Assembly: GCA_036172245.1 (NCBI GenBank)
Contig: JAYWIR010000071.1
Span: forward strand, 372,001 to 418,360
Direction of reading: 5' to 3'
DNA from: Raillietiella orientalis
Lineage: Eukaryota
Length of the DNA: 46,360 nucleotides
Below, piece after piece: positions 10,871-46,360 of the stretch; within the stretch, counting starts at the first letter, position 1, and each line of letters opens with the position of its first letter. The notes under the pieces were generated by a model. The model had not been told where the DNA came from, made no database searches, and was given only the letters and a program-made list of their open reading frames with translations. The position numbers and the translations under genes were made by a program.

Positions 10871-11299
10871 TGGTAAAGAGGCGAACGAAGGAAGAAGCAC
10901 TCTAACCTGTTCTTTGGGACCGAATTTCTAGCTTTTCGGCACTAAGGCGGAAGCTTTGTCCATGACCAACTGGTGTTTGGTTCACTTGGCTCCACCTCTG
11001 GTATCCACTTTTTCCGATCGTCAGTAAGTGTCGGTGTTAGCTCCTCTGAGCCATTGACCCGCTTTGCACATGCCCTATGGAAAACATGCAGTCAATCGTC
11101 CCAGCAACAGTGCATTAACCACTTGGGAAAACTCCCCTTTAGGGAATGTGGTTTGCTTTCAAGGGTTCAGTGCAAGACCATTGAGGCGCCATGCGTCCCC
11201 TACTGCACCATTAGGATGGGGAACAACTGGATGCATCTGCAGCGTAAAAGTGAACTTTCGGTGTTCGCTCACTAGGAGACGTGTCGACTGGCGAACGAA

Positions 11300-20900: not shown

Positions 20901-21879
20901 GGCATATGGAACTGCAGCCAGTCACTCTTATAATCCTCAAAACTGATTGTATTCGATTCCGATCTTGCACTAGCGAATAAGTAATATTATTAAGCAAGAA
21001 TTTATTTAGCTATTATAAAGCATCGCCTTATACCACTGTTCTTCAAAAATGATCCAAGTTTTCCAACACCCAAGTTCCTTTTCAGCGTGTTCACCTAAAG
21101 AAGTAAACCTTACAATCTCGACTAAGGTGAAAGGCGAAAGAGATACAAAAGATACAAAATAAATGATACTTCGTTAATGTGTAACAGCTGAATTCTATCC
21201 GAACAGCGTTTATTTTCGCATTTTCCATCAATTTCAGGCGAACTTATTTCGACACGCTGGTTGTGAACCTCAATTGTTCTTCCTTCTTTCCTGATGTTCT
21301 CTTGTCGCTGCATTGCTTAATTACAACTTTGGTCATTAGAACGCCGTTGGGTGTGCTCCTTGATCGCTGAAGGATCTCAAATGTCACAGAACTTACTGTC
21401 AGAAAATAACTGATGCCCTTGAATACTGAAGGCATTATTTTTTTTAAATGGTTCTGTCTATTTATTTTTAAATACTTCACGAGTACTCTGCAAGGTGCTT
21501 GTGATTTATGACACTTAACCATATAAAATAATTATTGCACCATATGGATGAACAAGGCAATCATAACCACCATTCATCTGCTAAGCAGATTTTCATTTCA
21601 TAAACTAACTTTGCCAGTTTTTGTTTAGATGTCAATTGCTTAGAGCATTGTGTTCTCCCAAACCAATAATTTTGAAATATATACTTGTAATTTGTTTTTC
21701 AGTTATTCATCAATACGAAATACATTCGCCGTCGCTGGATTCACTATATCCATGCATGCCTCAACTACCAGGAGTTATTGCGGAGATGGGAAATCAAACG
21801 TCTGTTTGTTTCTTCATGGCTACATAACGACATTGCCTATTTATATTACAATACCATTAGTTTTCTCTTCAAAGCACCA

Positions 21880-22540
21880 TTACTTGAATCCTATTATGGA
21901 TATAAAGCCCTATCAGTGTTCATTCTGACATCTATTCCACTGATAAACACTGCCCACCTTTGCCTTATAAAAGTTGCTTCAATGATGGCAGACTCTGAAA
22001 ACTTGGTAGCTCATTGTTATGGAGGATTTTCAGGTACTACATGAGTGTGAAAATTATTTATGAATAAACTTCTCTGCCAATTTTCTTCTAGATATAAACT
22101 TGTGTCTAAAAGTGATTTCAAATGCCATTATATTTCATGGAACAGATGCAAGTTTAAAACTTCAGGCATTTTATTGGTTAGAATTGGCTCTAAATCAATT
22201 AGTTTCCAAAGATGTTTCCTTGTTAGGAAATCTCAGTGGAATCATAATTGGTGCCATCTATGTGAAAATCTGTCAAAATCTTTGGGAAACAACTTCTCTG
22301 GGTAAGCACCTTTTGAAACATTTTCTTTCTTCCTCCTTTTTTGATAACTTAAGGACTTTTCAAGGATCAGGCATAGTTCATTTATTGCAAAAATTTATTT
22401 CATCATTAATGATCCCAAATTTTTCATCTAATATTGTTCTTGAAAAATCAATCATAATGATGGAGGCATGTTTATTTACTTGAAATCAACGTGAAAACAA
22501 ATAAATTGATATATCTTTAGAGAAACCTGATAGGTAGGGA
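21880..22540 (+). mobile_element. Possible highly decayed Penelope-like RT remnant
   Basis: Faint ordered similarities only (PTF.L.K, KLVS..D, GIIIGA, NFSSNIVLE, YL.IN...EKP), with many stops. Confidence 0.25.
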
Positions 22541-28981: not shown

Positions 28982-31900
28982 ATGCTTCAGAACATTGTAG
29001 TATTATTATATTCTGTATTTTCTTCACCTGTTGTTTTGTTTTTTTGTGGTGTATGGAATTACAAAGGTATATTTTGCAAATTAATATATTTTTTTTCCTC
29101 ATATATTGATACATTAAATTGAACTTTATTGAATGTTTCTGGCCAACTGTTGTGTTTGTAGTCTGGTCATCCAGTGTTGAGGAACATTTGGAGCTAGGCA
29201 AAGAACTATTATCCAGAGGTCAATTGCAAGATGCCCTTGTTCATTTCAATTCAGCAGTTGGTATGCTTTCATGCCTGTTAAGATCAATGATGTTATTTTT
29301 GTATTGGATATTGTAGAAATCGACAAGCAGAATTATTTAACTTTTTATAAGAGGGCCACTGTGTATTTAGCACTAGGAAAAGCAAAAGCTGCAAAAAATG
29401 ATCTGGATGAAGTGATTAGGTTAAAACCAGATTTTTTATCTGTGAGTCTTATAGAATGAAAGTAATAAAATCTCTCCTGTGAACTTCAGGCAAGAGTACA
29501 AAGAGGGAACATATTCCTAAAGCAGGGTCACCTGGATGAAGCACACATAGATCTTGAATTTGTGGTAAATATTACATTGGTTAAATATTTTAAGTATAGA
29601 TGTTAATTAAATAAGGTATAAACAGTTGAGTGTGTAGTTCACCGGAATTGAGTATTTGTAGATTTGTGTTGCTTTGCAACTATTTTGAGGATTTCAAAAA
29701 TGTTTCGCATTAGTCTTGATCAAATTTCGTAACTTTTGAATTGCAAAATGTTGAAATTGCAGACTTTAATGTGGCATTTATTCTGTAAACTAATTGATGT
29801 TTTTCCCGTATGCATTGGATTTTATCTTTCATCGTTTGTAATAATTTCCCTTTAGAATAATATTATAATATCCCCGAATCACTGTCTTTACAAATCAAGT
29901 GCAGACATGAAGAACATGCATTAATTTTGAGACAACAAGCATTAATACAGAATGGGAATTCATGCTTAAAAGCTTCAAAAATTCTTGAAAACATCTATAG
30001 ATACTTATCGATTTTTTTGATTTTCGACGTAAGTTGGCTGTTAATTTTCCTAAATGATAAAGAACATGAATGTGTTTGATGTCATATGGTAAGTAAGATA
30101 AGTCAGTTGACCATAGTTATTGCAAAGGAAAGTTGATTTAGTCCCCAGTAATGAATAAAATTTTGATATGCAAAGGAAGAAAATGATAATTGTAAATTTG
30201 AATGGGAACTACAAGATGAGATAGAAACTGATTTAATAATATGAAGGGATAAAATTTCTATATTTTGAGTTCATAAATTTTACTTTTAAAGTGTGTAATT
30301 TGATCATATTACATGTTTTTTGTGGTCATTGCTTTTTTGTGTTACATAATTAATTGTATTTTGCCCATGAAAGTGTGGAAATTTTTCGTTATTTACATCT
30401 CAGAATGGGACGATTTGTGCAATATTTCAATTTTCATTTAATGCAATATCGCTGCATTATGTAAATGTCTCTTATCTTCCCCTTAATAGAATGAAAGTCA
30501 AATCAAAATGGTTGGAATTGATTTTATTTTTCATGATTCATATAAAATGCATTTTTTTTATAATAAGGATTTCTGTGATCATTTGTTTCAATTTAGTCCA
30601 ACAAATGTGCTCTATTTTCTAAACATAACTTTAGGAAATTTGTAATTTTATCTTTGTTCATTGGTTGTATACTCAATTGAAGTATTGCATAGTGAGAATG
30701 CAGTAGTAGAATTTTCAGTTCTTCAGAACTCTTAGCATTAAATCACAAACACAACATGCAGGTTTTATTGCTATTAAGCTTGGTAATTGTTTGGAACCAT
30801 GTTTCTATAGATAATTGGAAATCATTGTGCTTAAATGAAGCATTACTATGATTTGAGCATGTAGTAAAATTTAAAACGTGTTTAGTTGGAAACCTGATAA
30901 TGTTGATGTGCTAATAAGGAGAACTGGAAAAATACGTATTTGGTATTTTTATTTGTTCCAGTTACGTCAGCAACCCAACAACGATGCAGCACAGCAACTT
31001 TATAATGCTATTGCACCTGCGGCACAAACCACTGAAGAAATTGAAACATTGATAAAAGTAAATAATTACCATGGTGCTCTTGAACTTTTAGGGAGAGCAC
31101 TTGATGTAAGGTGATCATATAGCATGTTAACCAATATTACTACCACAATGCTTAGGTGTGCCCTTGGAGTGTGAAATTACGTGAAATAAGAGCTGAGTGT
31201 TTAATCCAGGTAGGTGACATGCGGGGTGCCATAGCTGACTTGAAGCCTACTATCAGGCTGATGCCTGATAATACTCCAACACTACTCAAACTTTCTCATT
31301 TGTATTATGAATTGGGTGAAGCAGATGAAGCTCTTAGGTAAGTACAGGTAATTGTTTTGCCAATCTAATTATTTGTTTATAATGTAGTCAGATACGTGAG
31401 TGTCTCAAATTGGATCCAGATCATCAGCAATGTTACCAGTATTATAAGAAGTTGAAGAAGTTACACAAAACAATTGAGGATCTTGAGAAATCTGCTAAAA
31501 ATGAACAGTATGCTGACTGTATTAACAATGCCAGAAAAGTAATGTTTACTTTAAGGTGTCCATAATTCCATTGATGTTTTTTATAGGTAGAGCAACTTGA
31601 GCCAGAAATTGCAATGTTTAAATTTTTGGCCAATGACAAATTATGCACATGTTTTTATAAAAGTAACGAAATATTCGAGAGTATTCATTCTTGTACAGAA
31701 GCTTTGAATATACAAGAAGAAGAGCGTCTGTATTGCGATCGTGCTGATGCCCATCTTGCAGACAATAACTGGGATGAAGGTACAAATCTTACTTAATATA
31801 GATAACTTAAACCTATTGCAGCTATTAGTGACTTTCAAAAAGCCCTTAAGATGAATGAAGGATTCCAAAGAGCACGTGAGGGTTTGCAAAGGGCCCAGAA

Positions 31901-32225
31901 ATTGCAAAAATTGTCGCTAAAGCGTGATTATTACAAAATTTTGGGTGTGAAACGAACTGCCACCAAGCAAGAAATCACGAAAGCCTATCGCAAATTAGCT
32001 CAAAAATGGCATCCAGATAACTATTCTGGAGATGAGAAAAAAATGGCAGAGAAAAAGTTTATAGATATAGCTGCTGCAAGGGAAGTACTTTCTGATCCAG
32101 AGAAACGACAAAAGTATGAAAATGGTGAAGATCCGCTGGATCCCGAATCACAGCAAGGACAGCAGTTTAATCCATTCCACCATTTTCATGGTGCACCATT
32201 CCAGTTTCGGTTTCATTTCAATTGA
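28982..32225 (+). CDS. DNAJC3: DnaJ homolog subfamily C member 3 (P58IPK; TPR repeats + C-terminal J domain), 9 coding exons
   Basis: Exons 28982-29066, 29162-29260, 29317-29441, 29490-29564, 30962-31105, 31156-31337, 31388-31538, 31587-31779, 31822-32225 (GT-AG). Motifs: VEEHLELGKELLSRGQLQDAL, YLTFYKRATVYLALGK, IRECLKLDPDH, KRDYYKILGV, WHPD, and C-terminal FRFHFN. First exon is least certain. Confidence 0.95.
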
Positions 32226-33059
32226 TTCTTGTTAGGTTTATCTGACCTAGTCATTGTTTAGTGCCTTATTTTTGTAGAGAAATTAATTCCCAATCCATGT
32301 CTGTATCTTTTTTTGAAAGCATAAGAGGCATAAGATGCTTGTTAGTGTTGCCATCTGCCACTCGGATTATTTTATTATAAATCTAAATGACTGGATAATG
32401 TAAAATATCGATTATTATCACACAATAAATCTTGTGTTTTTTTCTGAAACTTTTATGAAAATAAATTTAAAATTCTGTGATAGAATTTGAATGTAAAATT
32501 TAAAAATTATTATAGAAAAGAATTTACCACGCAAACCAGCATTTAGCATGGCCCCCCCAACAATTACAGTGTTGACCATGTATTTCATGTAAATCTAAAT
32601 CTATCAATAAGTACGTCAGTCTTCCCCTGCCCAATAGTTGGCCATCAAATAATGTGGAATATTAAGCCAGTTATTCTGATGTATTCCTTGGGTACTGTAT
32701 CCTTAACAGAATCTAAATGTATGGGTCCATAAAATCTTCAGCACTGTTACTTCTGCCACTTTCAAAATGTTCAATGATTCTCGGTGAGAAATGTAATTAA
32801 TGCTACGAATTTCATACGATAATGTACTTTTTTTTTGAAAATGAGTTAAACAGCAGAAGCATTCTGCCAAAGGATTAGCATTGGCAACTTCGCAAATTAA
32901 GGTCGGGATCGATTTGCAAGCATGTAACAGTTCTACTCAATAACATGAAAGCCATGCGGTTTCACATTTCCCCAATCCCACAAGGGGTGGGATAAATTTA
33001 TTTTCTGATCATTCATACTGCGATCTCATTCGTTCCATTTTGAACAAAGTTCATAACTA

Positions 33060-35500
33060 TTTTTTTTTTTTCCATTGAAGTTTACTACGGGGAGTCAGAG
33101 AATTGAGGTTCTGCACTAGCCAGGGTTTGGGTGTGTTTGGACAATATCTCCAATTTTTTTAAGGATACATCGGTATGCTGGCACTTTAAAACAGTTCCGT
33201 ATGCCCATCTCTCTTCGGATAATCCCTTTCAGGATTTCCATGGGAGATTCTGCCCTTCCACTGGTCCTCATCTTCTATCATCTGATTAGGATGGCCCTAA
33301 TAAACAGGGCAGTGGACGTCCTAGACATGAGATCGTAACAAGGGACGTTACCTCTTCCTTGAAACATCTTGTCAGGACTTACGTCGGCGAATAGTTCTGC
33401 AGCCCTGCAACCCTTTACAGAGTCTGCCAGTCTTGATGTATTGTGGGGCAGGTCAAGAAATGAAGTCATGTGTCCACGACCACGCATGCTTTGCAGACCT
33501 CGTCTTCTCTTGCAGCTGTGAAGTATTTCATTTTAAGCCCGCTCAGGATTCCTCCATGATAAACATCAGGAGGTTGTCCTGGGTCTCCAGCGGTATTTCA
33601 CTACAGCAGGTACTTCCAATCGCTAGCAGCATGACCCTGTTGCTCCCGGAGCGATTGGCAGCTTCTTGGAGGGCGTTGGTATCTTTGCCTTCAAAAGTAG
33701 ATGGTACAAGCACTTGCTCATCCTGGTTCACGCCATATTGTGGTTTTTAAACACTTCGCGCGTCTGATGGGTAAACCTACCTGACACCATCTCAACGTAC
33801 CATGTAATACATGAGGTATAGTAGTATCCTCCACTTTTCCAGCTTGCGGATCTACTGAAATAAACTCTGGGGTGCTAGCAGATCTAACTCCTCGTGTCGC
33901 TTCGGACAAGGGGCAGACCTCGAATCACCAAAGGATGGATTCATCCTGCGAGAGTTCCTTGCTCCCCGGCACGATCTTCAAATGGTGCTTCTGCCCCAAT
34001 TCCTGCTTTCTTTTCTATATGTGGTCAACAGTTGACCTTTCCCCTGCTCGGTCTAGTAACACAGTCATCAGGCCTCACGAGTTCTTCAGTAACAACGAGT
34101 AGGTCGCTCATAGGCCTACTACTACGGACAGTGATACCAATCGGTCGAGGTGATCAGGAGGTGTGGAGAGTCCCTGATGTCGAGGGCGTGTCCTGGCGAC
34201 TACATCCCAGTGCCTCCATCTTAATTGGGACAACGCAGAGATTTCAGTCGCACCCTTGGTCGATACGTGTGCCAAGGAGATTTCCCTAGCAGCTTTTCCA
34301 CTTGGAGCATGGTCTGCAGAAGACCGCAACGAAAAGTACCCTCAGCAGGAGTAATCCATACCAAATGTTGGCCCGTCGGTTCATGCAGAAGTGCAATCGG
34401 ATGTACTTGCGGAATCCGGGGCCGTAAAAATAAACAAATTTACAGTTCGCTGTTGCACCTTTCGTCTTTTCGTTGTGTTCTGTGCTAAGCCAAAGATTCA
34501 TCGGATCATCGATTGAGTACTCCCGGTTCATCGCATGAAAAATCTGAACGTGGATCCAAATCCAGACCATCGGGCCTGACGGATGAGCTTGAAAATCAAT
34601 TCATCCGTGAAAACTTCACCCACCGGGTCCTCTACCAGCGCGATGTGGCTCGTGCCAACTGACGTTTTTGAGCAGGATTGCTTTGTAACTCCGATGGAAT
34701 AAGGACATTTGGATAATCAGAGAGTGGACAGGGAGGTGGAAGATGGTCACCGAAACCACGCGGATCGGTCCACCACCCATGCCTCCAACCGAAGAGGATG
34801 GAGAGAACGGAAAGGATGAAAGAGGACGCCGTCCATCGACACCAGGCAGCGGCGACAACGGCAGCTTCAAAGCGGCCCCACACGGACGCGACGTCGGGAA
34901 TGCATGCAATGCCCGCTCGCGATCACGAAACGGACCTTTGCGGAAAGCGGCGGCGGCGACGGGACATACCGACCCTCCACCGCTCCGAAAATGGCTTCCC
35001 CAATCAGCACAGTCCAACAAACCGAAGACACGCTTCGGGACGATTCGACGGAAAAGAGGCGACCTGAAAAAGCGTAAAAGCGACGTGGCGCTCACCAGGG
35101 GGAAGCGATCGACTGGGAGGTGGGACAGCCGCTATTGGCTAACGTCGCCGCCACGGAACGAGCGCAGCCTCCACCGGACCACGAATCAGGCAGAGCATCG
35201 CGACGAAGCGCAACGCGCATGCGCACGAACTATCAACAGAGCATAGTGCGCAAATAAGAACAGAGATGGGGAAACCAGAGCAACAAAAAATAAAAAATAA
35301 TCTTGGAGAAAACCAGAGAAAACAACGAAAAAATCACAAAAAAAGAAGAAAGCATTTATTGCAAAAGCAAACAACCACAAACAACAGCAGAAAAACATGC
35401 CATAAAAACTCACAAAACGCCAGAAATCCGCAAATAAACATTCAAATTCACAATACATGAAAAGAAAAGACAGGATAGATCAGAAAATTCAGCATACATA
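33060..35500 (-). mobile_element. Decayed, internally deleted relative of the U1-associated Tx1 element
   Basis: 33120-34420 translates (with stops and shifts) to KYIRLHFCMNRRANIWYGLLLLRVLF, IPLETQDNLLMF, GILSG, VCKAC..DT.LHFLTCPT, FQGRGNVPCYD, ALFIRAILIR, EILKGIIRREMGIRNC. All are colinear with the C-terminal half of the ORF2 at 37372-40899. T12 tail at 33060-33071. 34550-34800 has a weak ORF1 match (DPVGEVFTDELIFKL vs NQFGEIFSGEGFAKM). Extension beyond ~34420 to 35500 is tentative. Confidence 0.75.
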
Positions 35501-35505
35501 CAATC

Positions 35506-35668
35506 ATACTTACCTGGCTTCGAGGCGATCTTGGTCACCATGGAGATCCCTCCAGAGTGAGGCTCGATCATTGCACTGCGATTGGGCTGACCTCTGCGAT
35601 AACCCCAAACGTGGGTTACTCGGAAGCATAATTTTTAGGCTGGGAGACTGCGTTCGCGCGGACTCCTG
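35506..35668 (+). ncRNA. U1: U1 spliceosomal snRNA sequence, full length (163 nt)
   Basis: 5' ATACTTACCTGG; stem-loop I (GAGG.GATCTT/GAGATCCCTC); U1A loop ATTGCAC (35570-35576); SLIII CCCCAAACGTGGG; Sm site AATTTTTAG (35630-35638); SLIV GGGAGACTGCG-TTCG-CGCGGACTCCT. Confidence 0.95.
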
Positions 35669-35806
35669 CGAATTTCTTCAAAGTAAGTGGTTTTTTTCGA
35701 GTGCTGTGTGGAAAGTGGTGCGACAGAAAGGGACCGTGGACTTTGCCCTACCACCCAGTGTGCGGAGGAGGACGTTGCCCCACGGGATCGGCCCCAGTGG
35801 GGGAAA

Positions 35807-37365
35807 ATGGAGGCGATGGACGTCTCCACATGTGCGAGGCCGGTAGAGGCGCTGGCGGCGAGATCGGCGGAAGGGCCGAACGCAGCGTGCGCGGGAGCGG
35901 CGTCCCCTGCAACGCTCGTTGCGACGCCCGTATCGATCCGCCCTGCGTCGTACGCGGCGGCAGCAGCGGCGGCGCCACCTGGCGGTTGGAATGCGGCGGC
36001 GGTGAAATCGGTGGGTTTTCCGGGAGTGCCTCCGGCAAAACCGAGGATCGCTGTCCAACCAACAAGGTACATCCTGGACGACGAGGATGAGCCTATACTC
36101 GTCCTGCCGGCAGATGTCAAGCCGGTAGTTTTTAACTGCGGTCCCCTTCGTTTGGCAAACGTGAAGGACATTTACATCGCCCTTCATCAGAAAAACGTCG
36201 ATATGGACGTAGTTCAGGCCGTGATTCCGTGTGGGAACGGTTTCACCATTTACACGTCGTGCGATCCCCTCATCGAGGCACTTTGCGATCACGGCTTGAC
36301 CATCAGTGGGAAGCTATTCCGTGGAGTAGGAGAAACCTCCACGACGACAGTGTACCTGAAAGGGGTTGACTTTCACACCAGCAAGAAAGTCATCAAGAAC
36401 TTCCTGTCGCAGTACGGGGAAGTCCACCATCTGGAGATACGGAACCAGTTTGGTGAGATCTTCTCCGGAGAAGGATTTGCCAAGATGCGCCTGTACGAAA
36501 ATGCGCAGATGCCTGGCGTGGCTTACATCGACGCGTATTCGCAATCGGTGATGTTCAAATACAGGCAACAACCTGTATTTTGCGCAGGCTGCAAGACGTT
36601 TGGGCACCGCATCGGAGCATGCCCTAGGGCTCAATGTCACCGATGCGGCCAGCGAGGCCACTTCTTCCGGGAGTGCAACCAGCCCATAAAGTGCTACTTC
36701 TGCGGCTTGTCTGGTCATTCGAAGAAGGAATGCAGGCGATACGCCGCATGGAGGGACGCACAGGGGCTGCCACCATTAACGGTGGAACCGCAAGTGCAAA
36801 CGGAAGAGGAGAAGAAGACTCCTTCGGCCGAGGTGACTGCCAGGAAGGCGGCAGAACTCACCGAAGGGAAAAGAAGCCCGCAAAGGGGAAGAGAAAGACA
36901 GCACCACAACCTTCTGTGGAAGCGCCGGCGGAAGAGGCCGAGCCAGCCAAGGAAGCGGTGGAAATACAAGCTGCAGAGTTGGCGGAAGTTGCCAACGTAA
37001 CAGCAGAAGTGCAAGAAGTCGCGAAAATCGTGCAGGAAGCAGTAACCAGAGAAGCGAAGGCAGAAGCTCTGGAACGCATCAGCCGGGTGGAGGCCTCCAT
37101 CAACGAGCGCGTTCCAGACGCGGCCAAACGCTTCCAATTGGAAGAAAGGATGCTGGAAGTGAAACAGCGCTTCGCCAGAGGGGAGCTTGAGGATCTGCAA
37201 TATGCAGTCCCTCGAAGCGTCCTTAATGAAACGAGGCACTCAATCGCAGACAGCACCGACTACGTCGGGTCAGAAAGCGACGTAGGAGATCAGCGAGACG
37301 CAAAGGGGGGGACGACAACGTCTCCCAAGAAGAAGAGCAAGAGGAAGAGCAGGTCCTCCAACTAG
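35807..37365 (+). CDS. ORF1p (RRM-like region, three CCHC zinc knuckles, charged C-terminus), one frameshift
   Basis: First ATG at 35807. Knuckles CAGCKTFGHRIGAC, CHRCGQRGHFFREC, CYFCGLSGHSKKEC. The A4 run at 36869-36872 is A5 in copy 2 (42388-42392), which restores one ~519-aa frame ending at TAG 37365. Confidence 0.88.
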
Positions 37366-37371
37366 TCCCCT

Positions 37372-40300
37372 ATGGCCACCTTCCTGTCGACTGTCAGGAG
37401 CATCAACATCACCTCCTGGAACGTGAATGGATTGTGGACCCCGGAGAAGAGACGGATGGTCACGCGGACCATCGAGCGTGACCACATCGTGTGCCTTCAG
37501 GAAACCCACGAGCTCGAACATCAGACCATCTTGGAGCTGGAACGACGACTGGACGCCCAGCTGTTCGTGAGCCCGGGCCAGAAAAGGACCAAAAGCGTGG
37601 CGATGCTCGTGAAGAACGAGATCGCACACACCATCCTGGAAACCTTTTCACCTTGGCCCGGCCGAATCGTCGGAGTGAGGATGTCCTGGTCCGGAAACGT
37701 TCACCTGTTCCTGGTGAACGTGTACGGGCCACACCGTGGAAAACATCGCTGCGCGGAGGCCGTGCAGTCTCTGCTTCGCAGCAAAGCTTCGGCAAAGGAC
37801 ATCGTGATCGTCGTGGGTGACTTCAACATGCTGGACAAGATAACGCAGTCCAAGGATGCACGGGGAAGAACGGCGTATCGGCGGCTGTCGGACGAGTTCG
37901 GCCTGCAATGGCTGTCTGCCGCGAGCAAGCCGATCGACCACGTCCTCTTCAGCGAAGACATCGCGAATCGTGTGCAAGGCTTCCGGGAGTCTCCATCCGT
38001 ACTCTCGGATCATCCCCTGCTACGATTCACGCTGAAAACAGAGAACCCCCGAAGAAAGGAAGGCGCGCGGGCTGCATTAGTATGCATGCCCGCATGGTTC
38101 CAGACGCATCCCTGTCACCAGGAATTGATCGAGGCGATCCTGCGCAGCACCACCATTCGCAGGGTCGCCGACTGGGACAGGTTGAAGCGAACCATCCATC
38201 TGTTCAGTAATATGCAATACGGCGACAGGAAGATGAGGACGGAAGCGTACCGCGAGCTGGAACAGCAGCAAGATCGCTCGTTCTCGAAGTACTGGCCCCA
38301 GTACGAGAGCCGGTACGTCTTCAAGACGGTCAAAGGAGAAGTTGGAGTGCTGGAAAGGAGGAACATCGCCAGCGACGTTTTCTCCATCCGGCACGCAGAT
38401 GAAGTCAGGCACACGTCCGAAGGAATCGCGGAGGCGTTCCACCATCATTACGCCTCGCACTTCCGACGAAGACTTCTGTGCCCGACAGAACAAGAGAACA
38501 TTCTGCGGTACCTGCATCCGCGTGTAAGGAAAGAACACCAGGAAAAGATGGAAGCCGAGATCTCCCCAGAGGAAATCAAGATCGCTTTCGCTGGACTGCG
38601 CAAGGATGTGGCGGCAGGTCCCGATAGTGTTCCCATCTCGCACTCTCAGCGGTACCTGCACGCCTACCTTCGCTTGTTCCACGAACTGACAAACGCCATC
38701 CAGGAAGAAGGAAGACTTCCAGCATCGTTCCACGAGGGAAGGATGAAACTGCTGCCGAAGGGAGGCGACCTGATGGAAGTCACCCAATGGCGGCCGATCA
38801 CCATCCTTAACACGGATGCCAAGTGGCTGGCGAAGATCTGGGCCAACCGCTTAAGAATGGCGATGCCATCCGTCGTGTCTGCTACGCAGACATGCGCGGT
38901 GCCCGGACGAAGCATGACTGCGAACGTGAAGTGCGCCCTGGCCACCATCGGTTATTGCCGATACGTGGGCGAAGACCTGGTGCTTGGGCTCACGGATATG
39001 GAGAAGGCGTTCGACACCGTGGACCACTCGATGCTGCTGAAGATCTTGAGGAAACTGGGCTTCCCAAGCATCTTCATGCATTACCTGGAATGGACCCTGG
39101 CGGAGCAAATCGTGAAGATCAGGATCAACGGACTTGAGACGGCAGCAATTCGGATGGAAAGGGGTGTCCGCCAAGGTGACGCCCTGAGCCCGATGCTGTT
39201 CGTGCTGTACATGGAGGCGGTGTCCGCGATTATAGATCGGGGCAGCCGCCTCCAAGGAATAAAAATCGACAGCCAGCAGCTGACACACCTTGCGTATGCG
39301 GACGATCTGCTGTTCTTCCTGAAGGACGAACGTGATCAGGAAGCATTCCTAGGTGTTGTCAAGCAGATGGAAAATGGACTAGGACTCCAGATCAACTGCC
39401 AGAAGAGCCACCTGCTGCCAATCGGGATCATGGACCTCTCAGTACTTCAAGAGGCCGGATTCCGAGCGGCTGACACCGTCAAGTACCTGGGTATCCGCCT
39501 CGGCGAAGAGACTGCGTCTTGCTGCCTGTGGCAGGAGATCCTGGGTAAGGTCACCGACGAAGCCACCAAGTACACCAGAGTCGACTTCAACATGAAGCGG
39601 AGGGCTGCCTTGTGGAACGGAGTGCTCCTTCCCAAGGTTCTCTACGGAGCAGCCTTCTGCCGAATGGACAAGAAAACAAAGGAAGAACTGGAAAGGCTAC
39701 AAAGAAAGATCCTCTGGCGGGAGTATAGACCCAGGGTACGGCTGAAACTTCTGTGCCGCCCACGCGAACACGGTGGGACCGGGATGAAGCTGCTGCAACA
39801 CTCCGTGGAATGCATGGATGCGCGGCAGCTCCTGGATCTCACCAGAAGTTGGGAAGACTGGCCCTATGCAGCGCACCGGGCGTACTCGAAGCTGTTGAAC
39901 GGCTCGAGAGGCCTGATGTCAGCGCTCATAGGTGCCACAGGACAATGGATCAACATCGACCCTACGTGGAAGCGGAAGCAGGCACTGGTGAGAACCCAAG
40001 GGTTCAAAATCGTGCCTCGCAGCTCCGAGATATGGGACGAAGAACTGGCCATGGTGATACCTCACTTGATCCCGATGCCAAGGGAGACGGTGAACTGGTT
40101 GAACCAAAGGCCTAGATTGAACATCCGACGGTGCGAGCAGTTCGCTACCAGTGCCAGCCGGCACCAACTGCGACTGCATCGCCTGACCACGACCTTGAGG
40201 GGTGGTTTCAATCATCGCACCCGGGAACTTTGGAAAGAGCAGCCGCAGGAGTCGTGGCTGCTGATGACCAAAGATAACATCAGGGTGGAAACGGCGCGAA

Positions 40301-40899
40301 AACACCAAGACCTGGATGCCCTCAACGCAGCCTCGTGCCGTTACGGCCCAGCACATGCCAATGTGGTGGCCGTCGGGGCTGCACTGATGAGGAGCGACCT
40401 ACCTCCGGACACTCAGGACGACCTCCTGTTGTTCTTCAACGGAGGCATTCTGAGTGGATCCAGATTGCGGCACTGGACCGGGAGACAACAAGATGGATTC
40501 TGTTTGGCGTGTGGGGAAGAGGAAACCCAACTCCACGTACTCACCTGCCCCACGCTGCGTCCGGACTGGAAGGCGGTAAAGGCGGTGACGTGCCTGCAGA
40601 GGAAGACTGCGATGCAGATCCTGTGGGGATTGTTTCAGGGGACAGGAGTGGTTCCCCTGTACAATCCGATGGTTTTGACGACGCTGGCCCTCTTCATCAC
40701 AGCCATTGTGATAAGAAGGGCCAAGATGTACACACAGCGACGACAAGTGCCGGCTTGGGACATTCTCAGCGGCCTTGTTCGGAAGGAAATCGGGATTAGG
40801 AGTTGCGGAAGAATCGCCGCCTGGACGTACCGTTACATCTTGATGAAGATGGTCGAGTACTCCCAGGCACAAAGGACGATCCCACCCTCCGCCCCTTAA
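37372..40899 (+). CDS. ORF2p: apurinic-like endonuclease + reverse transcriptase + C-terminal zinc motif (intact, 1175 aa)
   Basis: APE motifs: SWNVNG, LQETH, NVYGP, GDFN, IDH, SDH. RT motifs: WRPITILNTD, DMEKAFD, GVRQGDALSP, YADD, KYLG. C-terminal CLAC..ETQLHVLTC. Confidence 0.97.
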   Translation: MATFLSTVRSINITSWNVNGLWTPEKRRMVTRTIERDHIVCLQETHELEHQTILELERRLDAQLFVSPGQKRTKSVAMLVKNEIAHTILETFSPWPGRIVGVRMSWSGNVHLFLVNVYGPHRGKHRCAEAVQSLLRSKASAKDIVIVVGDFNMLDKITQSKDARGRTAYRRLSDEFGLQWLSAASKPIDHVLFSEDIANRVQGFRESPSVLSDHPLLRFTLKTENPRRKEGARAALVCMPAWFQTHPCHQELIEAILRSTTIRRVADWDRLKRTIHLFSNMQYGDRKMRTEAYRELEQQQDRSFSKYWPQYESRYVFKTVKGEVGVLERRNIASDVFSIRHADEVRHTSEGIAEAFHHHYASHFRRRLLCPTEQENILRYLHPRVRKEHQEKMEAEISPEEIKIAFAGLRKDVAAGPDSVPISHSQRYLHAYLRLFHELTNAIQEEGRLPASFHEGRMKLLPKGGDLMEVTQWRPITILNTDAKWLAKIWANRLRMAMPSVVSATQTCAVPGRSMTANVKCALATIGYCRYVGEDLVLGLTDMEKAFDTVDHSMLLKILRKLGFPSIFMHYLEWTLAEQIVKIRINGLETAAIRMERGVRQGDALSPMLFVLYMEAVSAIIDRGSRLQGIKIDSQQLTHLAYADDLLFFLKDERDQEAFLGVVKQMENGLGLQINCQKSHLLPIGIMDLSVLQEAGFRAADTVKYLGIRLGEETASCCLWQEILGKVTDEATKYTRVDFNMKRRAALWNGVLLPKVLYGAAFCRMDKKTKEELERLQRKILWREYRPRVRLKLLCRPREHGGTGMKLLQHSVECMDARQLLDLTRSWEDWPYAAHRAYSKLLNGSRGLMSALIGATGQWINIDPTWKRKQALVRTQGFKIVPRSSEIWDEELAMVIPHLIPMPRETVNWLNQRPRLNIRRCEQFATSASRHQLRLHRLTTTLRGGFNHRTRELWKEQPQESWLLMTKDNIRVETARKHQDLDALNAASCRYGPAHANVVAVGAALMRSDLPPDTQDDLLLFFNGGILSGSRLRHWTGRQQDGFCLACGEEETQLHVLTCPTLRPDWKAVKAVTCLQRKTAMQILWGLFQGTGVVPLYNPMVLTTLALFITAIVIRRAKMYTQRRQVPAWDILSGLVRKEIGIRSCGRIAAWTYRYILMKMVEYSQAQRTIPPSAP

Positions 40900-41054
40900 C
40901 CCTAGGAACACATACAGACCAATTGTGAAAGTGAAATGTATCACGGTCATACAGACATTAAAAGTTTTAATGAATGTGAATTAGGATGATTGGAGTGAAA
41001 GGAATTTTGTTGGTTGCAATAAATTCACCCCACCGCTTGTCGGACTTGGGGACA

Positions 41055-41195
41055 ATCTTGGTCACCATGGAGATCCCTCCAGAGTGAGGCTCGATCATTG
41101 CACTGCGATTGGGCTGACCTCTGCGATAACCCCAAACGTGGGTTACTCGGAAGCATAATTTTTAGGCTGGGAGACTGCGTTCGCGCGGACTCCTG
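41055..41195 (+). ncRNA. U1: 5'-truncated U1 snRNA sequence (nt 23-163) between the two element copies
   Basis: Identical by eye to 35528-35668. Lacks the ATACTTACCTG splice-site recognition end. Confidence 0.93.
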
Positions 41196-41333
41196 CGAAT
41201 TTCTTCAAAGTAAGTGGTTTTTTTCGAGTGCTGTGTGGAAAGTGGTGCCACAGAAAGGGACCGTGGACTTTGCCCTACCACCCAGTGTGCGGAGGAGGAC
41301 GTTGCCCCACGGGATCGGCCCCAGTGGGGGAAA

Positions 41334-42887
41334 ATGGAGGCGGTGGACGTCTCCACATGTGCGAGGCCGGTAGAGGCGCTGGCGGCGACATCGGCGGAAG
41401 GGCCGAACGCAGCGTGCGCGGGAGCGGCGTCCCCTGCAACGCTCGTTGCGACGCCCGTATCGATCCGCCCTGCGTCGTACGCGGCGGCAGCAGCGGCGGC
41501 GCCACCTGGCGGTTGGAATGCGGCGGCGGTGAAATCGGTCGGTTTTCCGGGAGTGCCTCCGGCAAAACCGAGGATCCCTGTCCAACCAACAAGGTACATC
41601 CTGGACGACGAGGATGAGCCTATACTCGTCCTGCCGGCAGATGTCAAGCCGGTAGTTTTTAACTGCGGTCCCCTTCGTTTGGCAAACGTGAAGGACATTT
41701 AAATCGCCCTTCATCAGAAAAACGTCGATATGGACGTAAGTTTCAGGCCGTGATTCCATGTGGGAACGGTTTCATTTACCACGTCGTGCGATCACCCTCA
41801 TCGAGGCACTTTACGATCACGGCTTGACCATCAGTGGGAAGCTATTCCGTGGGTAGGAGAAACCTCACGACGACAGTGTACCTGAAAGGGTTTGACTTCC
41901 ACACCAGCAAGAAGTCATCAAGAACCTGTCACCGTACGGGAAGTCCCTGCATCTGGAGATACGGAACCAGTTTGGTGAGATCTTCTCGGAGAAGGACACG
42001 CAAGATGCGCCTGTGCAATGCACGCAGATGCCTGGCGTGGCTTACATCGACGCGTATTCGCAATCGGTGATGTTCAAATACAGGCAACAACCTGTATTTT
42101 GCGCTGGCTGCAAGACGTTTGGGCACCGCATCGGAGCATGCCCTAGGGCTCAATGTCACCGATGCGGCCAGCGAGGCCACTTCTTCCGGGAGTGCAACCA
42201 GCCCATAAAGTGCTACTTCTGCGGCTTGTCTGGTCATTCGAAGAAGGAATGCAGGCGATACGCCGCAGGGAGGGACGCACAGGGGCTGCCACCATTAACG
42301 GTGGAACCGCAAGTGCAAACGGAAGAGGAGAAGAAGACTCCTTCGGCCGAGGTGACTGCCAGGAAGGCGGCAGAACTCACCGAAGGGAAAAAGAAGCCCG
42401 CAAAGGGGAAGAGACAGACAGCACCACAACCTTCTGTGGAAGCGCCGGCGGAAGAGGCCGAGCCAGCCAAGGAAGCGGTGGAAATACAAGCTGCAGAGTT
42501 GGCGGAAGTTGCCAACGTAACAGCAGAAGTGCAAGAAGTCGCGAAAATCGTGCAGGAAGCAGTACCCAGAGAAGCGAAGGCAGAAGCTCTGGAACGCATC
42601 AGCCGGGTGGAGGCCTCCATCAACGAGCGCGTTCCAGACGCGGCCAAACGCTTCCAATTGGAAGAAAGGATGCTGGAAGTGAAACAGCGCTTCGCCAGAG
42701 GGGAGCTTGAGGATCTGCAATATGCAGTCCCTCGAAGCGTCCTTAATGAAACGAGGCACTCAATCGCAGACAGCACCGACTACGTCGGGTCAGAAAGCGA
42801 CGTAGGAGATCAGCGAGACGCAAAGGGGGGACGACAACGTCTCCCAAGAAGAAGAAGAGCAAGAGGAAGAGCAGGTCCTCCAACTAG
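41334..42887 (+). pseudogene. ORF1 of copy 2, disrupted
   Basis: TAC>TAA stop at 41700-41702, a cluster of small indels at ~41735-42020, and a G-run shift near 42830. Confidence 0.8.
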
Positions 42888-42893
42888 TCCCCT

Positions 42894-45800
42894 ATGGCCA
42901 CCTTCCTGTCGACTGTCAGGAGCATCAACATCACCTCCTGGAACGTGAATGGATTGTGGAACCCGGAGAAGAGACGGATGGTCACGCGGACCATCGAGCG
43001 TGACCACATCGTGTGCCTTCAGGAAACCCACGAGCTCGAACATCAGACCATCTTGGAGCTGGAACGACGACTGGACGCCCAGCTGTTCGTGAGCCCGGGC
43101 CAGAAAAGGACCAAAGGCGTGGCGATGCTCGTGAAGAACGAGATCGCACACACCATCCTGGAAACCTTTTCACCTTGGCCCGGCCGAATCGTCGGAGTGA
43201 GGATGTCCTGGTCCGGAAACGTTCACCTGTTCCTGGTGAACGTGTACGGGCCACACCGTGGAAAACATCGCTGCGCGGAGGTCGTGCAGTCTCTGCTTCG
43301 CAGCAAAGCTTCGGCAAAGGACATCGTGATCGTCGTGGGTGACTTCAACATGCTGGACAAGATAACGCAGTCCAAGGATGCACGGGGAAGAACGGCGTAT
43401 CGGCGGCTGTCGGACGAGTTCGGCCTGCAATGGCTGTCTGCCGCGAGCAAGCCGATCGACCACGTCCTCTTCAGCGAAGACATCGCGAATCGTGTGCAAG
43501 GCTTCCGGGAGTCTCCATCCGTACTCTCGGATCATCCCCTGCTACGATTCACGCTGAAAACAGAGAACCCCCGAAGAAAGGAAGGCGCGCGGGCTGCATT
43601 AGTATGCATGCCCGCATGGTTCCAGACGCATCCCTGTCACCAGGAATTGATCGAGGCGATCCGCGCAGCACCACCATTCGCAGGGTCGCCGACTGGGACA
43701 GGTTGAAGCGAACCATCCATCTGTTCAGTAATATGCAATACGGCGACAGGAAGATGAGGACGGAAGCGTACCGCGAGCTGGAACAGCAGCAAGATCGCTC
43801 GCTCTCGAAGTACTGGCCCCAGTACGAGAGCCGGTACGTCTTCAAGACGGTCAAAGGAGAAGTTGGAGTGCTGGAAAGGAGGAACATCGCCAGCGACGTT
43901 TTCTCCATCCGGCACGCAGATGAAGTCAGGCACACGTCCGAAGGAATCGCGGAGGCGTTCCACCATCATTACGCCTCGCACTTCCGACGAAGACTTCTGT
44001 GCCCGACAGAACAAGAGAACATTCTGCGGTACCTGCATCCGCGTGTAAGGAAAGAACACCAGGAAAAGATGGAAGCCGAGATCTCCCCAGAGGAAATCAA
44101 GATCGCTTTCGCTGGACTGCGCAAGGATGTGGCGGCAGGTCCCGATAGTGTTCCCATCTCGCACTATCAGCGGTACCTGCACGCCTACCTTCGCTTGTTC
44201 CACGAACTGACAAACGCCATCCAGGAAGAAGGAAGACTTCCAGCATCGTTCCACGAGGGAAGGATGAAACTGCTGCCGAAGGGAGGCGACCTGATGGAAG
44301 TCACCCAATGGCGGCCGATCACCATCCTGAACACGGATGCCAAGTGGCTGGCGAAGATCTGGGCCAACCGCTTAAGAATGGCGATGCCATCCGTCGTGTC
44401 TGCTACGCAGACATGCGCGGTGCCCGGACGAAGCATGACTGCGAACGTGAAGTGCGCCCTGGCCACCATCGGTTATTGCCGATACGTGGGCGAAGACCTG
44501 GTGCTTGGGCTCACGGATATGGAGAAGGCGTTCGACACCGTGGACCACTCGATGCTGCTGAAGATCTTGAGGAAACTGGGCTTCCCAAGCATCTTCATGC
44601 ATTACCTGGAATGGACCCTGGCGGAGCAAATCGTGAAGATCAGGATCAACGGACTTGAGACGGCAGCAATTCGGATGGAAAGGGGTGTCCGCCAAGGTGA
44701 CGCCCTGAGCCCGATGCTGTTCGTGCTGTACATGGAGGCGGTGTCCGCGATTATAGATCGGGGCAGCCGCCTCCAAGGAATAAAAATCGACAGCCAGCAG
44801 CTGACACACCTTGCGTATGCGGACGATCTGCTGTTCTTCCTGAAGGACGAACGTGATCAGGAAGCATTCCTAGGTGTTGTCAAGCAGATGGAAAATGGAC
44901 TAGGACTCAAGATCAACTGCCAGAAGAGCCACCTGCTGCCAATCGGGATCATGGACCTCTCAGTACTTCAAGAGGCCGGATTCCGAGCGGCTGACACCGT
45001 CAAGTACCTGGGTATCCGCCTCGGCGAAGAGACTGCGTCTCGCTGCCTGTGGCAGGAGATCCTGGGTAAGGTCACCGACGAAGCCACCAAGTACACCAGA
45101 GTCGACTTCAACATGAAGCGGAGGGCTGCCTTGTGGAACGGAGTGCTCCTTCCCAAGGTTCTCTACGGAGCAGCCTTCTTCCGAATGGACAAGAAGACGA
45201 AGGAACAGCTGGAAAGGCTACTAAGGAAGATCCTCTGGCGAAAGTATAGACCCAGGGTACGGCTGAAACTTCTGTGCCGCCCTCGCGAGCACGGTGGGAC
45301 CAAGATGAAGCTGCTGCAACACTCCGTAGTATGCATGGATGCGCGGCAGCTCTTGGATCTCACCAGAAGTTGGAAAGACTGGCCCTATGCAGCGCACCGG
45401 GAGTACTCGAAGCTGTTGAACGGCTCGAGGGGCCTGATGTCAGCGCTCATAAGTGCCACAGGACAATGGATCAACATCGATCCTACGTGGAAGCGGAAGC
45501 AGGCACTGGTGAGAACCGAAGGGTTCAAAATCGTGCCTCGCAGCTCCGAGATATGGGACGAAGAACTGGCCATGGTGATACCTCACTTGATCCCGATACC
45601 AAGGGAGACGGTGAACTGGTTGAACCAAAGGCCTAGATTGAACATCCGACGGTGTGAGCAGTTCGCTATCAGTGCCAGCTTGCACCAACTGCGACTGCAT
45701 CGCCTGCTCACGACCTTGCGGGTTTGTTTGAACCATCGCATTCGGGAACTTTGGAAGGAGCAGCCGCAGGAGTTGTGGCTGCTGATGACCAAAGATAACA

Positions 45801-46360
45801 TCAGGGTGGAAACGGCGCGAAAACACCAAGACCTGGATGCCCTCAACGCAGCCTCGTGCCGTTACGGCCCAGCACATGCCAATGTGGTGGCCGTCGGGGC
45901 TGCACTGATGAGGAGCGACCTACCTCCGGACACTCAGGACGACCTCCTGTTGTTCTTCAACGGAGGCATTCTGAGTGGATCCAGATTGCGGCACTGGACC
46001 GGGAGACAACAAGATGGATTCTGCTTGGCGTGTGGGGAAGAGGAAACCCAACTCCACGTACTCACCTGCCCCACGCTGCGTCCGGACTGGAAGGCGGTAA
46101 AGGCGGTGACGTGCCTGCAGAGGAAGACTGCGATGCAGATCCTGTGGGGATTGTTTCAGGGGACAGGAGTGGTTCCCCTGTACAATCCGATGGTTTTGAC
46201 GACGCTGGCCCTCTTCATCACAGCCATTGTGATAAGAAGGGCCAAGATGTACACACAGCGACGACAAGTGCCGGCTTGGGACATTCTCAGCGGCCTTGTT
46301 CGGAAGGAAATCGGGATTAGGAGTTGCGGAAGAATCGCCGCCTGGACGTACCGTTACATC
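42894..46360 (+). pseudogene. ORF2 of copy 2, single frameshift, incomplete at window end
   Basis: Same APE-RT sequence as copy 1. One T is missing after 43662 (GATCCGCGC vs GATCCTGCGC). Could be a sequencing error. Confidence 0.8.

What the first reader, a model, noticed from the sequence alone, without database searches (positions are those of the whole stretch)
35506..46360. Tx1-like retrotransposon that appears to target U1 snRNA and rebuild its own target, forming a tandem array
Seen: order is U1(1-163) - ORF1 - ORF2 - 3'UTR - U1(23-163) - ORF1 - ORF2. Both copies follow the U1 3' end through the same junction (..GGACTCCTG-CGAATTTC), and copy 1 ends tail-less exactly at U1 nt 23. Known: Tx1-clade families are often sequence-specific (Keno at U2 snRNA, Mutsu at 5S, Dewa at tRNA arrays); Utopia also targets U2, and Dada DNA transposons include U1-targeting families. 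I do not know of a Tx1 family with this U1-restoring architecture. Inference: the element carries U1 sequence as its 5' head and inserts at U1 nt 22/23. Each insertion would regenerate a complete U1 upstream, giving a possible promoter-driven leader, a spared host gene and a fresh target. Copy 1 would be a newer insertion into the U1 head of copy 2.
Basis: partly seen in the sequence, partly recalled or inferred. Interest (0 to 1): 0.93.

Follow-up and report, generated by a model that had tools for sequence, protein, structure and literature searches.

The report
LINE retrotransposon array inside a U1 gene
Two tandem copies of an insect LINE retrotransposon sit inside a U1 snRNA gene so that a complete U1 gene with a promoter-like flank is rebuilt in front of the newest copy, which suggests, from this one locus only, a retrotransposon that targets U1 and may borrow its promoter.

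Summary
Rfam finds a full U1 at 35506-35668. U1 nt 23-163 recurs at 41055-41195 with no differences. Each U1 runs through the same junction into a 5.5-kb APE+RT LINE. The two copies are 98.2% alike.

New evidence:
- A 5'-truncated sister-family fragment (32967-34408, minus strand) shares the last ~37 nt and stops at the same base. So 41054 is a genuine element 3' end, joined without a tail to U1 nt 23.
- An insect PSEA-like promoter motif lies at -62 to -42 of the first U1.
- Copy 1 is nearly intact and copy 2 is decayed.
- A 600-nt patch differs with dN/dS 0.37, so other active lineages exist.

The host is an insect (DnaJC3 exon, 79% to a cricket protein).

Not shown:
- Genome-wide U1 specificity. 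There is one junction, no genome is held, and the sister fragment is not in U1.
- That the RNA carries U1. A 141-bp target duplication fits equally well.
- Tx1 membership. The RT tree is unresolved, and the ORF2 is L1/Tx1-like with no relative above 41% identity.

Precedents exist: U1-headed crocodilian Tx1 families, and Utopia/U2 arrays in Phytophthora with the same layout.

Verdict: probably a new variant of a target-specific LINE, of moderate to high interest.

The parts
35444..35464 (+). PSEA-like snRNA promoter element, positions -62 to -42 of the first U1
   Evidence: AATTCACAA at 35445-35453 corresponds to PSEA positions 2-10, with T5, C6 and C8. Those three positions are near-invariant in 101 insect Pol II PSEAs (PMC1761439, section 31). 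The fly PSEA is printed inside a probe in PMC4227766. The motif occurs 2 times in the window on both strands, with 3.6 expected. A hit on the right strand within a few bases of the right distance therefore has a chance of roughly 1e-4 (my arithmetic).
35506..35668 (+). Complete U1 snRNA sequence (nt 1-163), continuous with the element leader
   Evidence: Rfam RF00003, 132.9 bits, E 1.3e-33, full model.
35669..35806 (+). Leader / 5' UTR of copy 1. It contains a 5'-splice-site-like GTAAGT at 35683-35688
   Evidence: Sequence. In the predicted fold of 35506-35700, U1 nt 2-8 pair with 35683-35689 (z -2.99). No ribozyme or other Rfam family was found at E<=5.
35807..37365 (+). ORF1 of copy 1, from the first ATG, in two overlapping frames. 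It has three CCHC knuckles and a weak RRM-like stretch
   Evidence: Zinc-knuckle Pfam hits are below the curated cut-offs. PDB nucleocapsid and RRM hits are weak. The frame change coincides with an A-run length difference at 36868 versus 42388.
37372..40899 (+). ORF2 of copy 1, open, 1175 aa: APE endonuclease, reverse transcriptase and a Cys/His C-terminal motif
   Evidence: Pfam PF03372 2e-16 and PF00078 4.2e-30. Best solved relative is human LINE-1 ORF2p, 1.8e-54. The CX2CX7HX3C motif was read by eye.
40900..41054 (+). 3' UTR of copy 1, with AATAAA at 41018-41023 and a terminal hairpin at 41028-41051. There is no poly(A)
   Evidence: The last ~37 nt are conserved in the sister fragment and similarity ends at the same base.
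41055..41195 (+). U1 nt 23-163, identical to the same part of the first U1. It is the spacer between the copies and the head of copy 2
   Evidence: No differences. It lies within the Rfam hit 41033-41195.
41196..46360 (+). Copy 2 of the element, decayed, cut by the window end 215 nt before the unit's end
   Evidence: 98.16% identity to copy 1. ORFs are broken. There is an indel-rich patch at 41738-42022 and a one-base deletion in ORF2 after 43662.
32967..34408 (-). 5'-truncated fragment of a sister LINE family (ORF2 aa 733-1167 plus 3' UTR), not flanked by U1
   Evidence: tblastn E 3e-24 and 1e-20, 37-56% aa identity. The 3' terminal module is shared. There is no U1 in 32200-35520 at E<=10. 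The flank versus U1 local score has p 0.84.

Best explanation
This is an APE-type LINE of the L1/Tx1 supergroup, living in an insect genome, that has integrated into a U1 snRNA gene.

Proposed cycle:
1. Target-primed reverse transcription starts at a bottom-strand nick opposite U1 nt 22/23. The element's tail-less 3' end is therefore joined directly to U1 nt 23 (shown for one junction).
2. The element RNA begins with U1, because it is read from the U1 gene's own PSEA-type promoter through the U1 body into the leader (inferred).
3. At the end of reverse transcription the cDNA copy of that U1 leader anneals to the U1 nt 1-22 left upstream of the nick. The 5' junction then rebuilds a seamless, promoter-linked U1 (inferred from the layout).
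4. The rebuilt U1 is again a target. The next insertion lands promoter-proximal and pushes older copies downstream, where they have no promoter and decay. This gives the observed order: promoter - U1(1-163) - nearly intact copy - U1(23-163) - decayed copy.

A conserved 3'-terminal stem-loop probably marks the RNA for its own reverse transcriptase (inferred).
For: - U1 and repeat anatomy.
- The 3' end at 41054 is genuine. The sister fragment at 32967-34408 (minus strand) shares about 31 of the last 37 nt by my hand alignment (28 identical columns in MAFFT). Similarity stops at the same base.
- The 17-nt terminal pattern occurs only at these two places in the window (2 matches, 0.37 expected).
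- One loop-closing pair changes from G-C to C-G between the two families.
- A PSEA-like motif with T5/C6/C8 lies at -62..-42 of the first U1. None is seen at that distance before the second U1 (read).
- Polarity of decay: copy 1 ORF2 is open (1175 aa), while copy 2 has at least one ORF2 and many ORF1 frameshifts.
- The copies are not a plain duplicate. Outside a patch there are 9 codon differences in about 2860 nt. Inside 39655-40255, dS is 0.13, dN 0.048 and the ratio 0.37. This indicates exchange with another selected lineage.
- In run X1, 14 of 31 laid contigs are only 90-95% alike and 7 are 95-99% alike.
- No ribozyme separates U1 from the leader.
- Precedents: U1-derived heads on Tx1 families (PMC4494074, section 16); co-transcription with the target and flank-dependent transcription discussed for R2 (same paper, section 20); 'intact U2 upstream / U2 nt 39-end downstream' in Utopia arrays (PMC4640811, section 6).
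Against: - Only one 3' junction of this family is visible. The end of the array lies beyond the window.
- The sister-family fragment 2.5 kb away is not next to U1, so U1 targeting is not a property of the whole lineage.
- In run X1 one listed contig (284 nt, no mismatches) ends exactly at 41055. This could mark a branch to other 3' flanks, or just thin coverage (depth about 3.6). 25 of 33 pieces and 9 of 15 loose ends were not shown.
- The two U1 segments are identical, so they cannot tell an RNA-borne head from a target duplication.
- snRNA-type promoters are not known to drive long protein-coding RNAs (my general knowledge).
- The PSEA match rests on 9 bases, and the PSEB was not assessed.
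Confidence: 0.45

Rival explanations
1. The element is U1-site-specific, but its RNA has no U1. The bottom strand is nicked at U1 nt 22/23 and the top strand about 141 bp downstream, at the U1 3' end. U1 nt 23-163 is then a very long target-site duplication on both sides of each insertion. Repeated insertion into the upstream complete U1 builds the array.
For: It gives exactly the observed layout. The identical U1 segments fit a duplication of one target. Family-specific target duplications exist: Utopia families from reptiles make 20-bp duplications (PMC4640811, section 6).
Against: It needs a top-strand cut exactly at the mature U1 3' end, which would be a coincidence. 141 bp is far longer than the duplications named in the papers read here. 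U1-derived heads carried by L1/Tx1-type elements are documented (PMC4494074, section 16).
Confidence: 0.15
2. The element is a U1-headed LINE without U1 target specificity, like the crocodilian Tx1 families. The head-to-tail pair arose in a single integration. The reverse transcriptase jumped from near the 5' end of one RNA (at U1 nt 23) to the 3' end of a second RNA. The flank only happens to resemble a U1 promoter.
For: Template switching is the published explanation for snRNA heads and 5' extensions (PMC4494074, sections 17 and 19). The sister fragment is at a non-U1 site. A contig of run X1 ends at 41055.
Against: The PSEA-like motif at the right distance and strand has a chance of roughly 1e-4 (my arithmetic). 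Copy 2 is much more decayed than copy 1, which is unexpected for copies made in one event. A jump 22 nt short of the template end would have to be explained.
Confidence: 0.2
3. There was only one insertion. The array then grew by unequal crossing-over between the 141-bp U1 direct repeats flanking that insertion, so copy 1 is not a newer retrotransposition.
For: Direct repeats of 141 identical bases flank copy 1. Outside two patches the copies differ at only about 0.3%.
Against: The patch at 39655-40255 differs by about 6% with dN/dS 0.37, and the damage is one-sided. Both would need extra gene conversion from other family members. This rival does not touch the main point, since the single insertion would still show the U1-restoring layout.
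Confidence: 0.15
4. The tandem layout is an assembly artefact.
For: Repeats of 5.5 kb are hard to assemble. The indel-rich patch in copy 2 could be poor consensus.
Against: The copies differ at more than 100 positions spread along the unit, including a coherent 600-nt patch. The junction sequences are clean.
Confidence: 0.03

Closest known systems
Keno (Tx1-clade LINE specific for U2 snRNA genes)
   Same: An APE-type LINE with a precise 3' junction inside a spliceosomal snRNA gene (PMC4494074, introduction; PMC4640811, section 6).
   Different: The target here is U1, not U2. Keno is reported from frogs, fish, lancelet and hydra, whereas this host is an insect. No U1-restoring 5' junction is described for Keno in the passages I read. 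Membership of this element in the Tx1 clade is unresolved.
Utopia in Phytophthora (restriction-like-endonuclease LINE in U2 gene arrays)
   Same: In both, the downstream snRNA starts at an internal nucleotide (U2 nt 39 there, U1 nt 23 here). Upstream of the element there is an intact gene instead of the expected 5' fragment, and elements and snRNA pieces form arrays (PMC4640811, section 6; S2 Fig legend only, figure not seen).
   Different: Utopia has a different endonuclease type, a different snRNA and a different host kingdom. The authors explain the layout by deletion or recombination, not by an snRNA-bearing RNA.
Tx1-2_Crp, Tx1-2B_Crp and Tx1-4_AMi (crocodilian Tx1 families with U1-derived heads)
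   Same: An L1/Tx1-type LINE whose 5' end is U1-derived (PMC4494074, section 16).
   Different: Per PMC4494074, most of the crocodilian Tx1-Mar group prefers the Mariner-N4_AMi DNA transposon and Tx1-4_AMi prefers specific LTR retrotransposons, and none of the three is said there to insert in U1. The targets of Tx1-2_Crp and Tx1-2B_Crp themselves are not given in the passages I read. Their heads are ascribed to template switching and give no known promoter.
R2/R1 elements of rRNA genes (works like, not a member)
   Same: Transcription depends on the target gene, and co-transcribed target sequence can guide precise integration (PMC4494074, section 20, citing Eickbush and Fujimoto).
   Different: They have different clades, different targets and Pol I co-transcription. 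R2 cuts itself free with a ribozyme (recalled), and none was found here.
Dada-U1A_DR / Dada-U1B_DR
   Same: A mobile element specific for U1 snRNA genes that also occurs in tandem (PMC3706591, passages).
   Different: It is a DDE DNA transposon of zebrafish. It uses a different site in U1 (a GCGAAT/GCGAAC target duplication) and does not regenerate the gene.

Membership tests
Non-LTR retrotransposon (LINE) with apurinic-like endonuclease | ORF2 with an N-terminal APE domain followed by a reverse transcriptase | tested here: met
   PF03372 at residues 15-214 (2e-16) and PF00078 at 462-710 (4.2e-30).
Non-LTR retrotransposon (LINE) with apurinic-like endonuclease | A defined 3' end shared by copies, with 5' truncation of some copies | tested here: met
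   The sister fragment is 5'-truncated at about ORF2 aa 733 and shares the 3' terminal module.
L1/Tx1 supergroup | ORF2 closest to L1-type proteins; Cys/His motif near the C-terminus; ORF1 with RNA-binding modules | tested here: met
   The best solved relative is human LINE-1 ORF2p at 1.8e-54, against R2 at 9.4e-24. The L1 endonuclease is hit, while the TRAS1 and R1Bm endonucleases are not listed at E<=0.001. The CX2CX7HX3C motif was read. There are three CCHC knuckles.
Tx1 clade | RT domain groups with Tx1 reference elements in a phylogeny (RTclass1-type test) | tested here: inconclusive
   I built a FastTree of 77 RT domains. These were the 77 of the 83 collected proteins that phmmer matched over more than 300 query residues. 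The query is a long lone branch (1.43) in an open fork between plant L1-like and animal groups. Only one row bears a TX1-derived name. No Repbase references are available here.
Tx1 clade | Close sequence relatives among known Tx1 elements | tested here: not met
   Among the 150 best hits listed from 1.84 billion representatives, identity is at most 41%, over a short stretch, and mostly 25-33%. The best identities were 24-27% and 30%.
Target-specific LINE (U1 snRNA genes) | The target is seen in the flanks of a sizeable share of copies (more than 20% in PMC4494074, section 6) | not testable with these tools
   No genome is held. In the window, 1 of 1 visible 3' junctions of this family abuts U1, and 0 of 1 for the sister family. 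Run X1 was uninformative.
U1 spliceosomal RNA (RF00003) | Score above the Rfam gathering threshold over the full model | tested here: met
   132.9 bits against a gathering score of 69.5, model 1-166.
Insect Pol II snRNA gene promoter | A PSEA with T5, C6 and C8, centred about 50-55 bp upstream of the start | tested here: met
   35444-35464 has T5, C6 and C8 and is centred at -52. The PSEB was not assessed, and activity was not tested.

The most novel reading that the evidence does not exclude
This is a LINE that lives as a downstream rider of U1 snRNA genes. It is transcribed from the U1 promoter as a U1-led RNA. It inserts at U1 nt 22/23 and uses its own U1 leader to rebuild the gene. Every insertion therefore restores the U1 sequence behind its promoter, captures that promoter for the newest copy and recreates the target, and arrays grow only at the promoter-proximal end. 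This would be the first U1-specific retrotransposon and a self-renewing target strategy.
Probability: 0.35. Interest if true: 0.8.

Novelty: new variant of a known kind. Interest (0 to 1): 0.6.

Why it matters
Target-specific LINEs are models for safe-harbour insertion, and snRNA genes are a rare, low-copy target. [quoted passage not shown] They note that keeping specificity for a low-copy target is hard to explain.

An element that rebuilds its target, and possibly the gene, at each insertion would answer that puzzle directly. It would also give a natural case of a Pol II snRNA promoter driving a retrotransposon. The same idea may explain the unexplained 'intact U2 upstream' layout of Utopia arrays.

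If the rivals hold, this is simply one more U1-headed LINE with a local tandem pair.

Tried and rejected
- Whole-genome search: no genome is held.
- Sequencing runs: one run was listed (X1, share 0.32) and no RNA holder was listed. Laying X1 gave 31 short, low-depth contigs. No listed piece bridges 41054/41055 or 41195/41196, and only 8 of 33 pieces and 6 of 15 loose ends were shown, so no junction table could be made. A contig with a U1 variant (a G put in after 41124, T>C at 41143) exists, but its ends are not listed.
- Metagenome scan with the 3' junction pattern: 2 hits, both chance matches. They carry no U1 and have no similarity to the window; by my reading of the sequence alone they lie in bacterial-looking coding sequence.
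- Viral and prokaryote collections: no relative of ORF2 and no junction match.
- Protein searches: no relative closer than about 30-41% identity. The cluster look-up gave almost no names. The Atlas gave only generic APE+RT clusters.
- Pfam on 118 other ORFs of the window (9, 109): only a DnaJ domain, plus a weak TPR and a weak rhomboid hit.
- Idea that 41033-41054 is a mutated U1 5' end: rejected, because the same module ends the sister fragment at a non-U1 site (11/22 and 9/22 matches to U1 nt 1-22).
- Idea that the sister fragment's flank is a decayed U1: rejected (local score p 0.84). In register, 11 of the first 21 bases match U1 nt 23-43 if the terminal A is shared. This is a weak post-hoc hint of a shared site preference.
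- Ribozyme between U1 and the leader: none.
- The bacterial promoter/terminator scan is irrelevant to a eukaryote.
- Tandem repeat and tRNA scans: nothing.
- Literature searches for a U1-targeting retrotransposon: none found. Repbase and subscription journals are not covered.

Full report
WHAT IS THERE

Rfam finds three things in the window:
- a complete U1 snRNA at 35506-35668 (132.9 bits);
- a second U1 hit at 41033-41195 (105.2 bits);
- an unrelated 28S rRNA fragment at 12365-12892 on the minus strand.

A self-BLAST of the unit 35506-41032 finds itself and one more copy, 41055-46360. That copy is 98.16% identical over 5323 columns and starts at unit position 23. The base-by-base list shows no difference between 35528-35721 and 41055-41248. 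So U1 nt 23-163 and the first 53 nt of the leader are identical in both copies. 41033-41054 matches U1 nt 1-22 at only 11 of 22 positions. Both U1 3' ends run into the same leader. The window ends 215 nt before the end of copy 2, so there is only one visible 3' junction.

THE ELEMENT

Copy 1 has an open ORF2 of 1175 aa (37372-40899) with an APE endonuclease and a reverse transcriptase. A Cys/His motif lies near the C-terminus (read).

ORF1 starts at the ATG at 35807. It has three CCHC knuckles and a weak RRM-like stretch. It lies in two overlapping frames. The shift coincides with a one-base difference in an A-run (36868 versus 42388), which could be a real lesion or a consensus error.

The 3' UTR (40900-41054) has AATAAA at 41018-41023 and a terminal hairpin at 41028-41051, and no poly(A).

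Copy 2 is decayed. ORF1 is broken by an indel-rich patch, and ORF2 is split by a one-base deletion.

IS 41054 A REAL ELEMENT END?

Yes. tblastn with ORF2 finds a 5'-truncated fragment of a sister family on the minus strand at 32967-34408. It covers ORF2 aa 733-1167 at 37-56% identity, with E 3e-24 and 1e-20.

The two 3' UTRs are hardly alignable except for the last ~37 nt. These agree at about 31 of 37 positions by my hand alignment; MAFFT marks 28 identical columns. Similarity stops at the same base, after GGGGA(C/A)A. The 17-nt terminal pattern occurs only at these two places in the window.

In the predicted hairpin the loop-closing pair is G-C in one family and C-G in the other. That is one compensatory change between two sequences, which is suggestive only.

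The junction '3' end | U1 nt 23' is therefore a retrotransposition junction and not an arbitrary duplication breakpoint. The sister fragment itself is not followed by U1. No U1 is found at E<=10 in 32200-35520, and the flank-versus-U1 local score has p 0.84.

THE UPSTREAM FLANK

The host is an insect. A DnaJ exon at 31806-32222 is 79% identical to a Gryllus DnaJC3-like protein and 73-74% identical to cockroach and locust orthologues.

Insect Pol II snRNA genes have a PSEA centred about 50-55 bp upstream. Its positions T5, C6 and C8 are conserved in 100, 101 and 95 of 101 genes (PMC1761439, introduction and section 31). A fly PSEA is printed inside a probe in PMC4227766.

The flank of the first U1 reads AAATTCACAAT at 35444-35454. 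That gives T5, C6 and C8, with position 1 at -62. The 9-base core occurs twice in the window on both strands, with 3.6 expected. A hit on the right strand within a few bases of the right distance therefore has a chance of about 1e-4 by my arithmetic.

I conclude that the first U1 sits behind a genuine U1 promoter. The second U1 piece has the element's 3' UTR at that distance and no such motif.

HISTORY OF THE TWO COPIES

Outside one patch the ORF2 codons differ at 9 positions in about 2860 nt, with dN/dS about 1. Inside 39655-40255 there are 38 differences, with dS 0.13, dN 0.048 and a ratio of 0.37. That patch must come from another lineage that evolved under selection, so the family has further members.

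Run X1 agrees. Of 31 contigs laid, 10 are at least 99% alike, 7 are 95-99% and 14 are 90-95%. The intact copy is the promoter-proximal one.

MOST LIKELY MECHANISM

See Best explanation. The steps that are shown:
- insertion into U1 sequence with a precise, tail-less 3' junction at nt 23;
- a complete promoter-linked U1 upstream;
- polarity of decay.

The steps that are inferred:
- transcription from the U1 promoter;
- a U1 leader on the RNA;
- homology-assisted 5' joining;
- endonuclease specificity.

No known ribozyme lies between U1 and the leader.

In the predicted fold of U1 plus leader, a 5'-splice-site-like GTAAGT (35683-35688) pairs with the U1 5' arm. Its meaning is open. The same stretch loosely resembles the snRNA 3' box as I recall it, which I did not test.

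RIVALS

- A 141-bp target-site duplication gives the same layout without U1 in the RNA.
- A template jump between two U1-headed RNAs in one event could give a head-to-tail pair. It does not explain the promoter-like flank or the unequal decay.
- Unequal crossing-over between the U1 repeats could have expanded a single insertion. That would change only the claim that copy 1 is newer.
- Misassembly is unlikely, given more than 100 ordered differences.
- The thin run X1 gives one awkward fact. A 284-nt contig without mismatches ends exactly at 41055. This could be a branch to other flanks or simply low coverage.

COMPARISON WITH WHAT IS KNOWN

I read passages, sections 16 and 18 and the abstract of PMC4494074. 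Tx1 targets listed there are U2, U5, 5S, satellites, microsatellites and transposons. Three crocodilian Tx1 families carry U1-derived heads, and none is said there to insert in U1. The paper places most of the Tx1-Mar group in Mariner-N4_AMi and Tx1-4_AMi in LTR retrotransposons.

I read passages and sections 6 and 11 of PMC4640811. For snRNA genes, only Keno and Utopia (U2), Dada-U1 and Dada-U6 had been reported. In Phytophthora, the U2 downstream of Utopia starts at nt 39, while intact U2 genes were found upstream, in arrays. That is the same layout as here, explained there by deletion or recombination. I did not see its supplementary figures.

Dada-U1 uses another site in U1 (PMC3706591, passages).

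Five full-text searches found no U1-targeting retrotransposon. Repbase could not be searched.

CLADE

ORF2 is L1/Tx1-like: human L1 ORF2p scores 1.8e-54 against R2 at 9.4e-24. It is isolated. Its best identities are 24-30% and at most 41% over a short stretch among the 150 best hits listed from 1.84 billion representatives. In a FastTree of 77 RT domains it is a long lone branch in an unresolved fork. These 77 were the ones of 83 collected proteins that phmmer matched over more than 300 query residues. 'Tx1-like' is therefore not established.

VERDICT

The reading as a U1-targeting, U1-restoring LINE is the best explanation, but it rests on one locus. I rate it a new variant of a known kind, with interest 0.6.

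Noticed in passing
window 12365-12892 (-), with inverted repeat arms 12823-12911 and 23638-23726: There is a 28S rRNA fragment (Rfam LSU_rRNA_eukarya positions 955-1444, 84.9 bits) outside any rDNA context. An 89-nt piece of it recurs inverted, 96% complementary, 10.7 kb away. It could be rRNA pseudogene pieces, perhaps carried by a mobile element.
   Followed up: no
window 35680-35689: A 5'-splice-site-like AAAGTAAGTG lies 12 nt after the U1 3' end. In the predicted fold it pairs with the U1 5' arm (nt 2-8), closing the whole U1 in a long-range helix. It might be a real donor site, a U1 snRNP landing site or part of a 3' box.
   Followed up: partly
window 988-1197 (+), 15356-17880 (-), 10984-11103 (-): More distant LINE remnants are present. 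One RT piece is 43% identical to ORF2 aa 443-518, another is 28% identical at 15521-15999, and there is a CCHC knuckle at 17111-17221. The left half of the window is GC-rich and LINE-rich.
   Followed up: partly
window 29181-32222 (+) and 21691-22041 (+): Host gene exons are present: a DnaJ domain exon (1.1e-24) and a weak TPR exon, together looking like DnaJC3/P58IPK, plus a weak rhomboid-like ORF. The U1/LINE array starts about 3.3 kb downstream of the DnaJ exon.
   Followed up: partly
window 32946-32966 (-) versus U1 nt 23-43: If the terminal A is shared, the 3' flank of the sister fragment matches U1 nt 23-43 at 11 of 21 positions, including a common CATGG. This is a weak post-hoc hint that the lineage has a site preference, of which U1 may be the best match.
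   Followed up: partly
window 41738-42022: A 300-nt stretch of copy 2 is crowded with one- to three-base indels relative to copy 1. The rest of the unit has almost none. It is either a local decay hot spot or poor assembly consensus.
   Followed up: partly
window 32285-32293 (+): A second, perfect PSEA-core match (AATTCCCAA) lies just after the DnaJ exon. No snRNA-like sequence lies about 60 nt downstream, so it is probably chance.
   Followed up: yes
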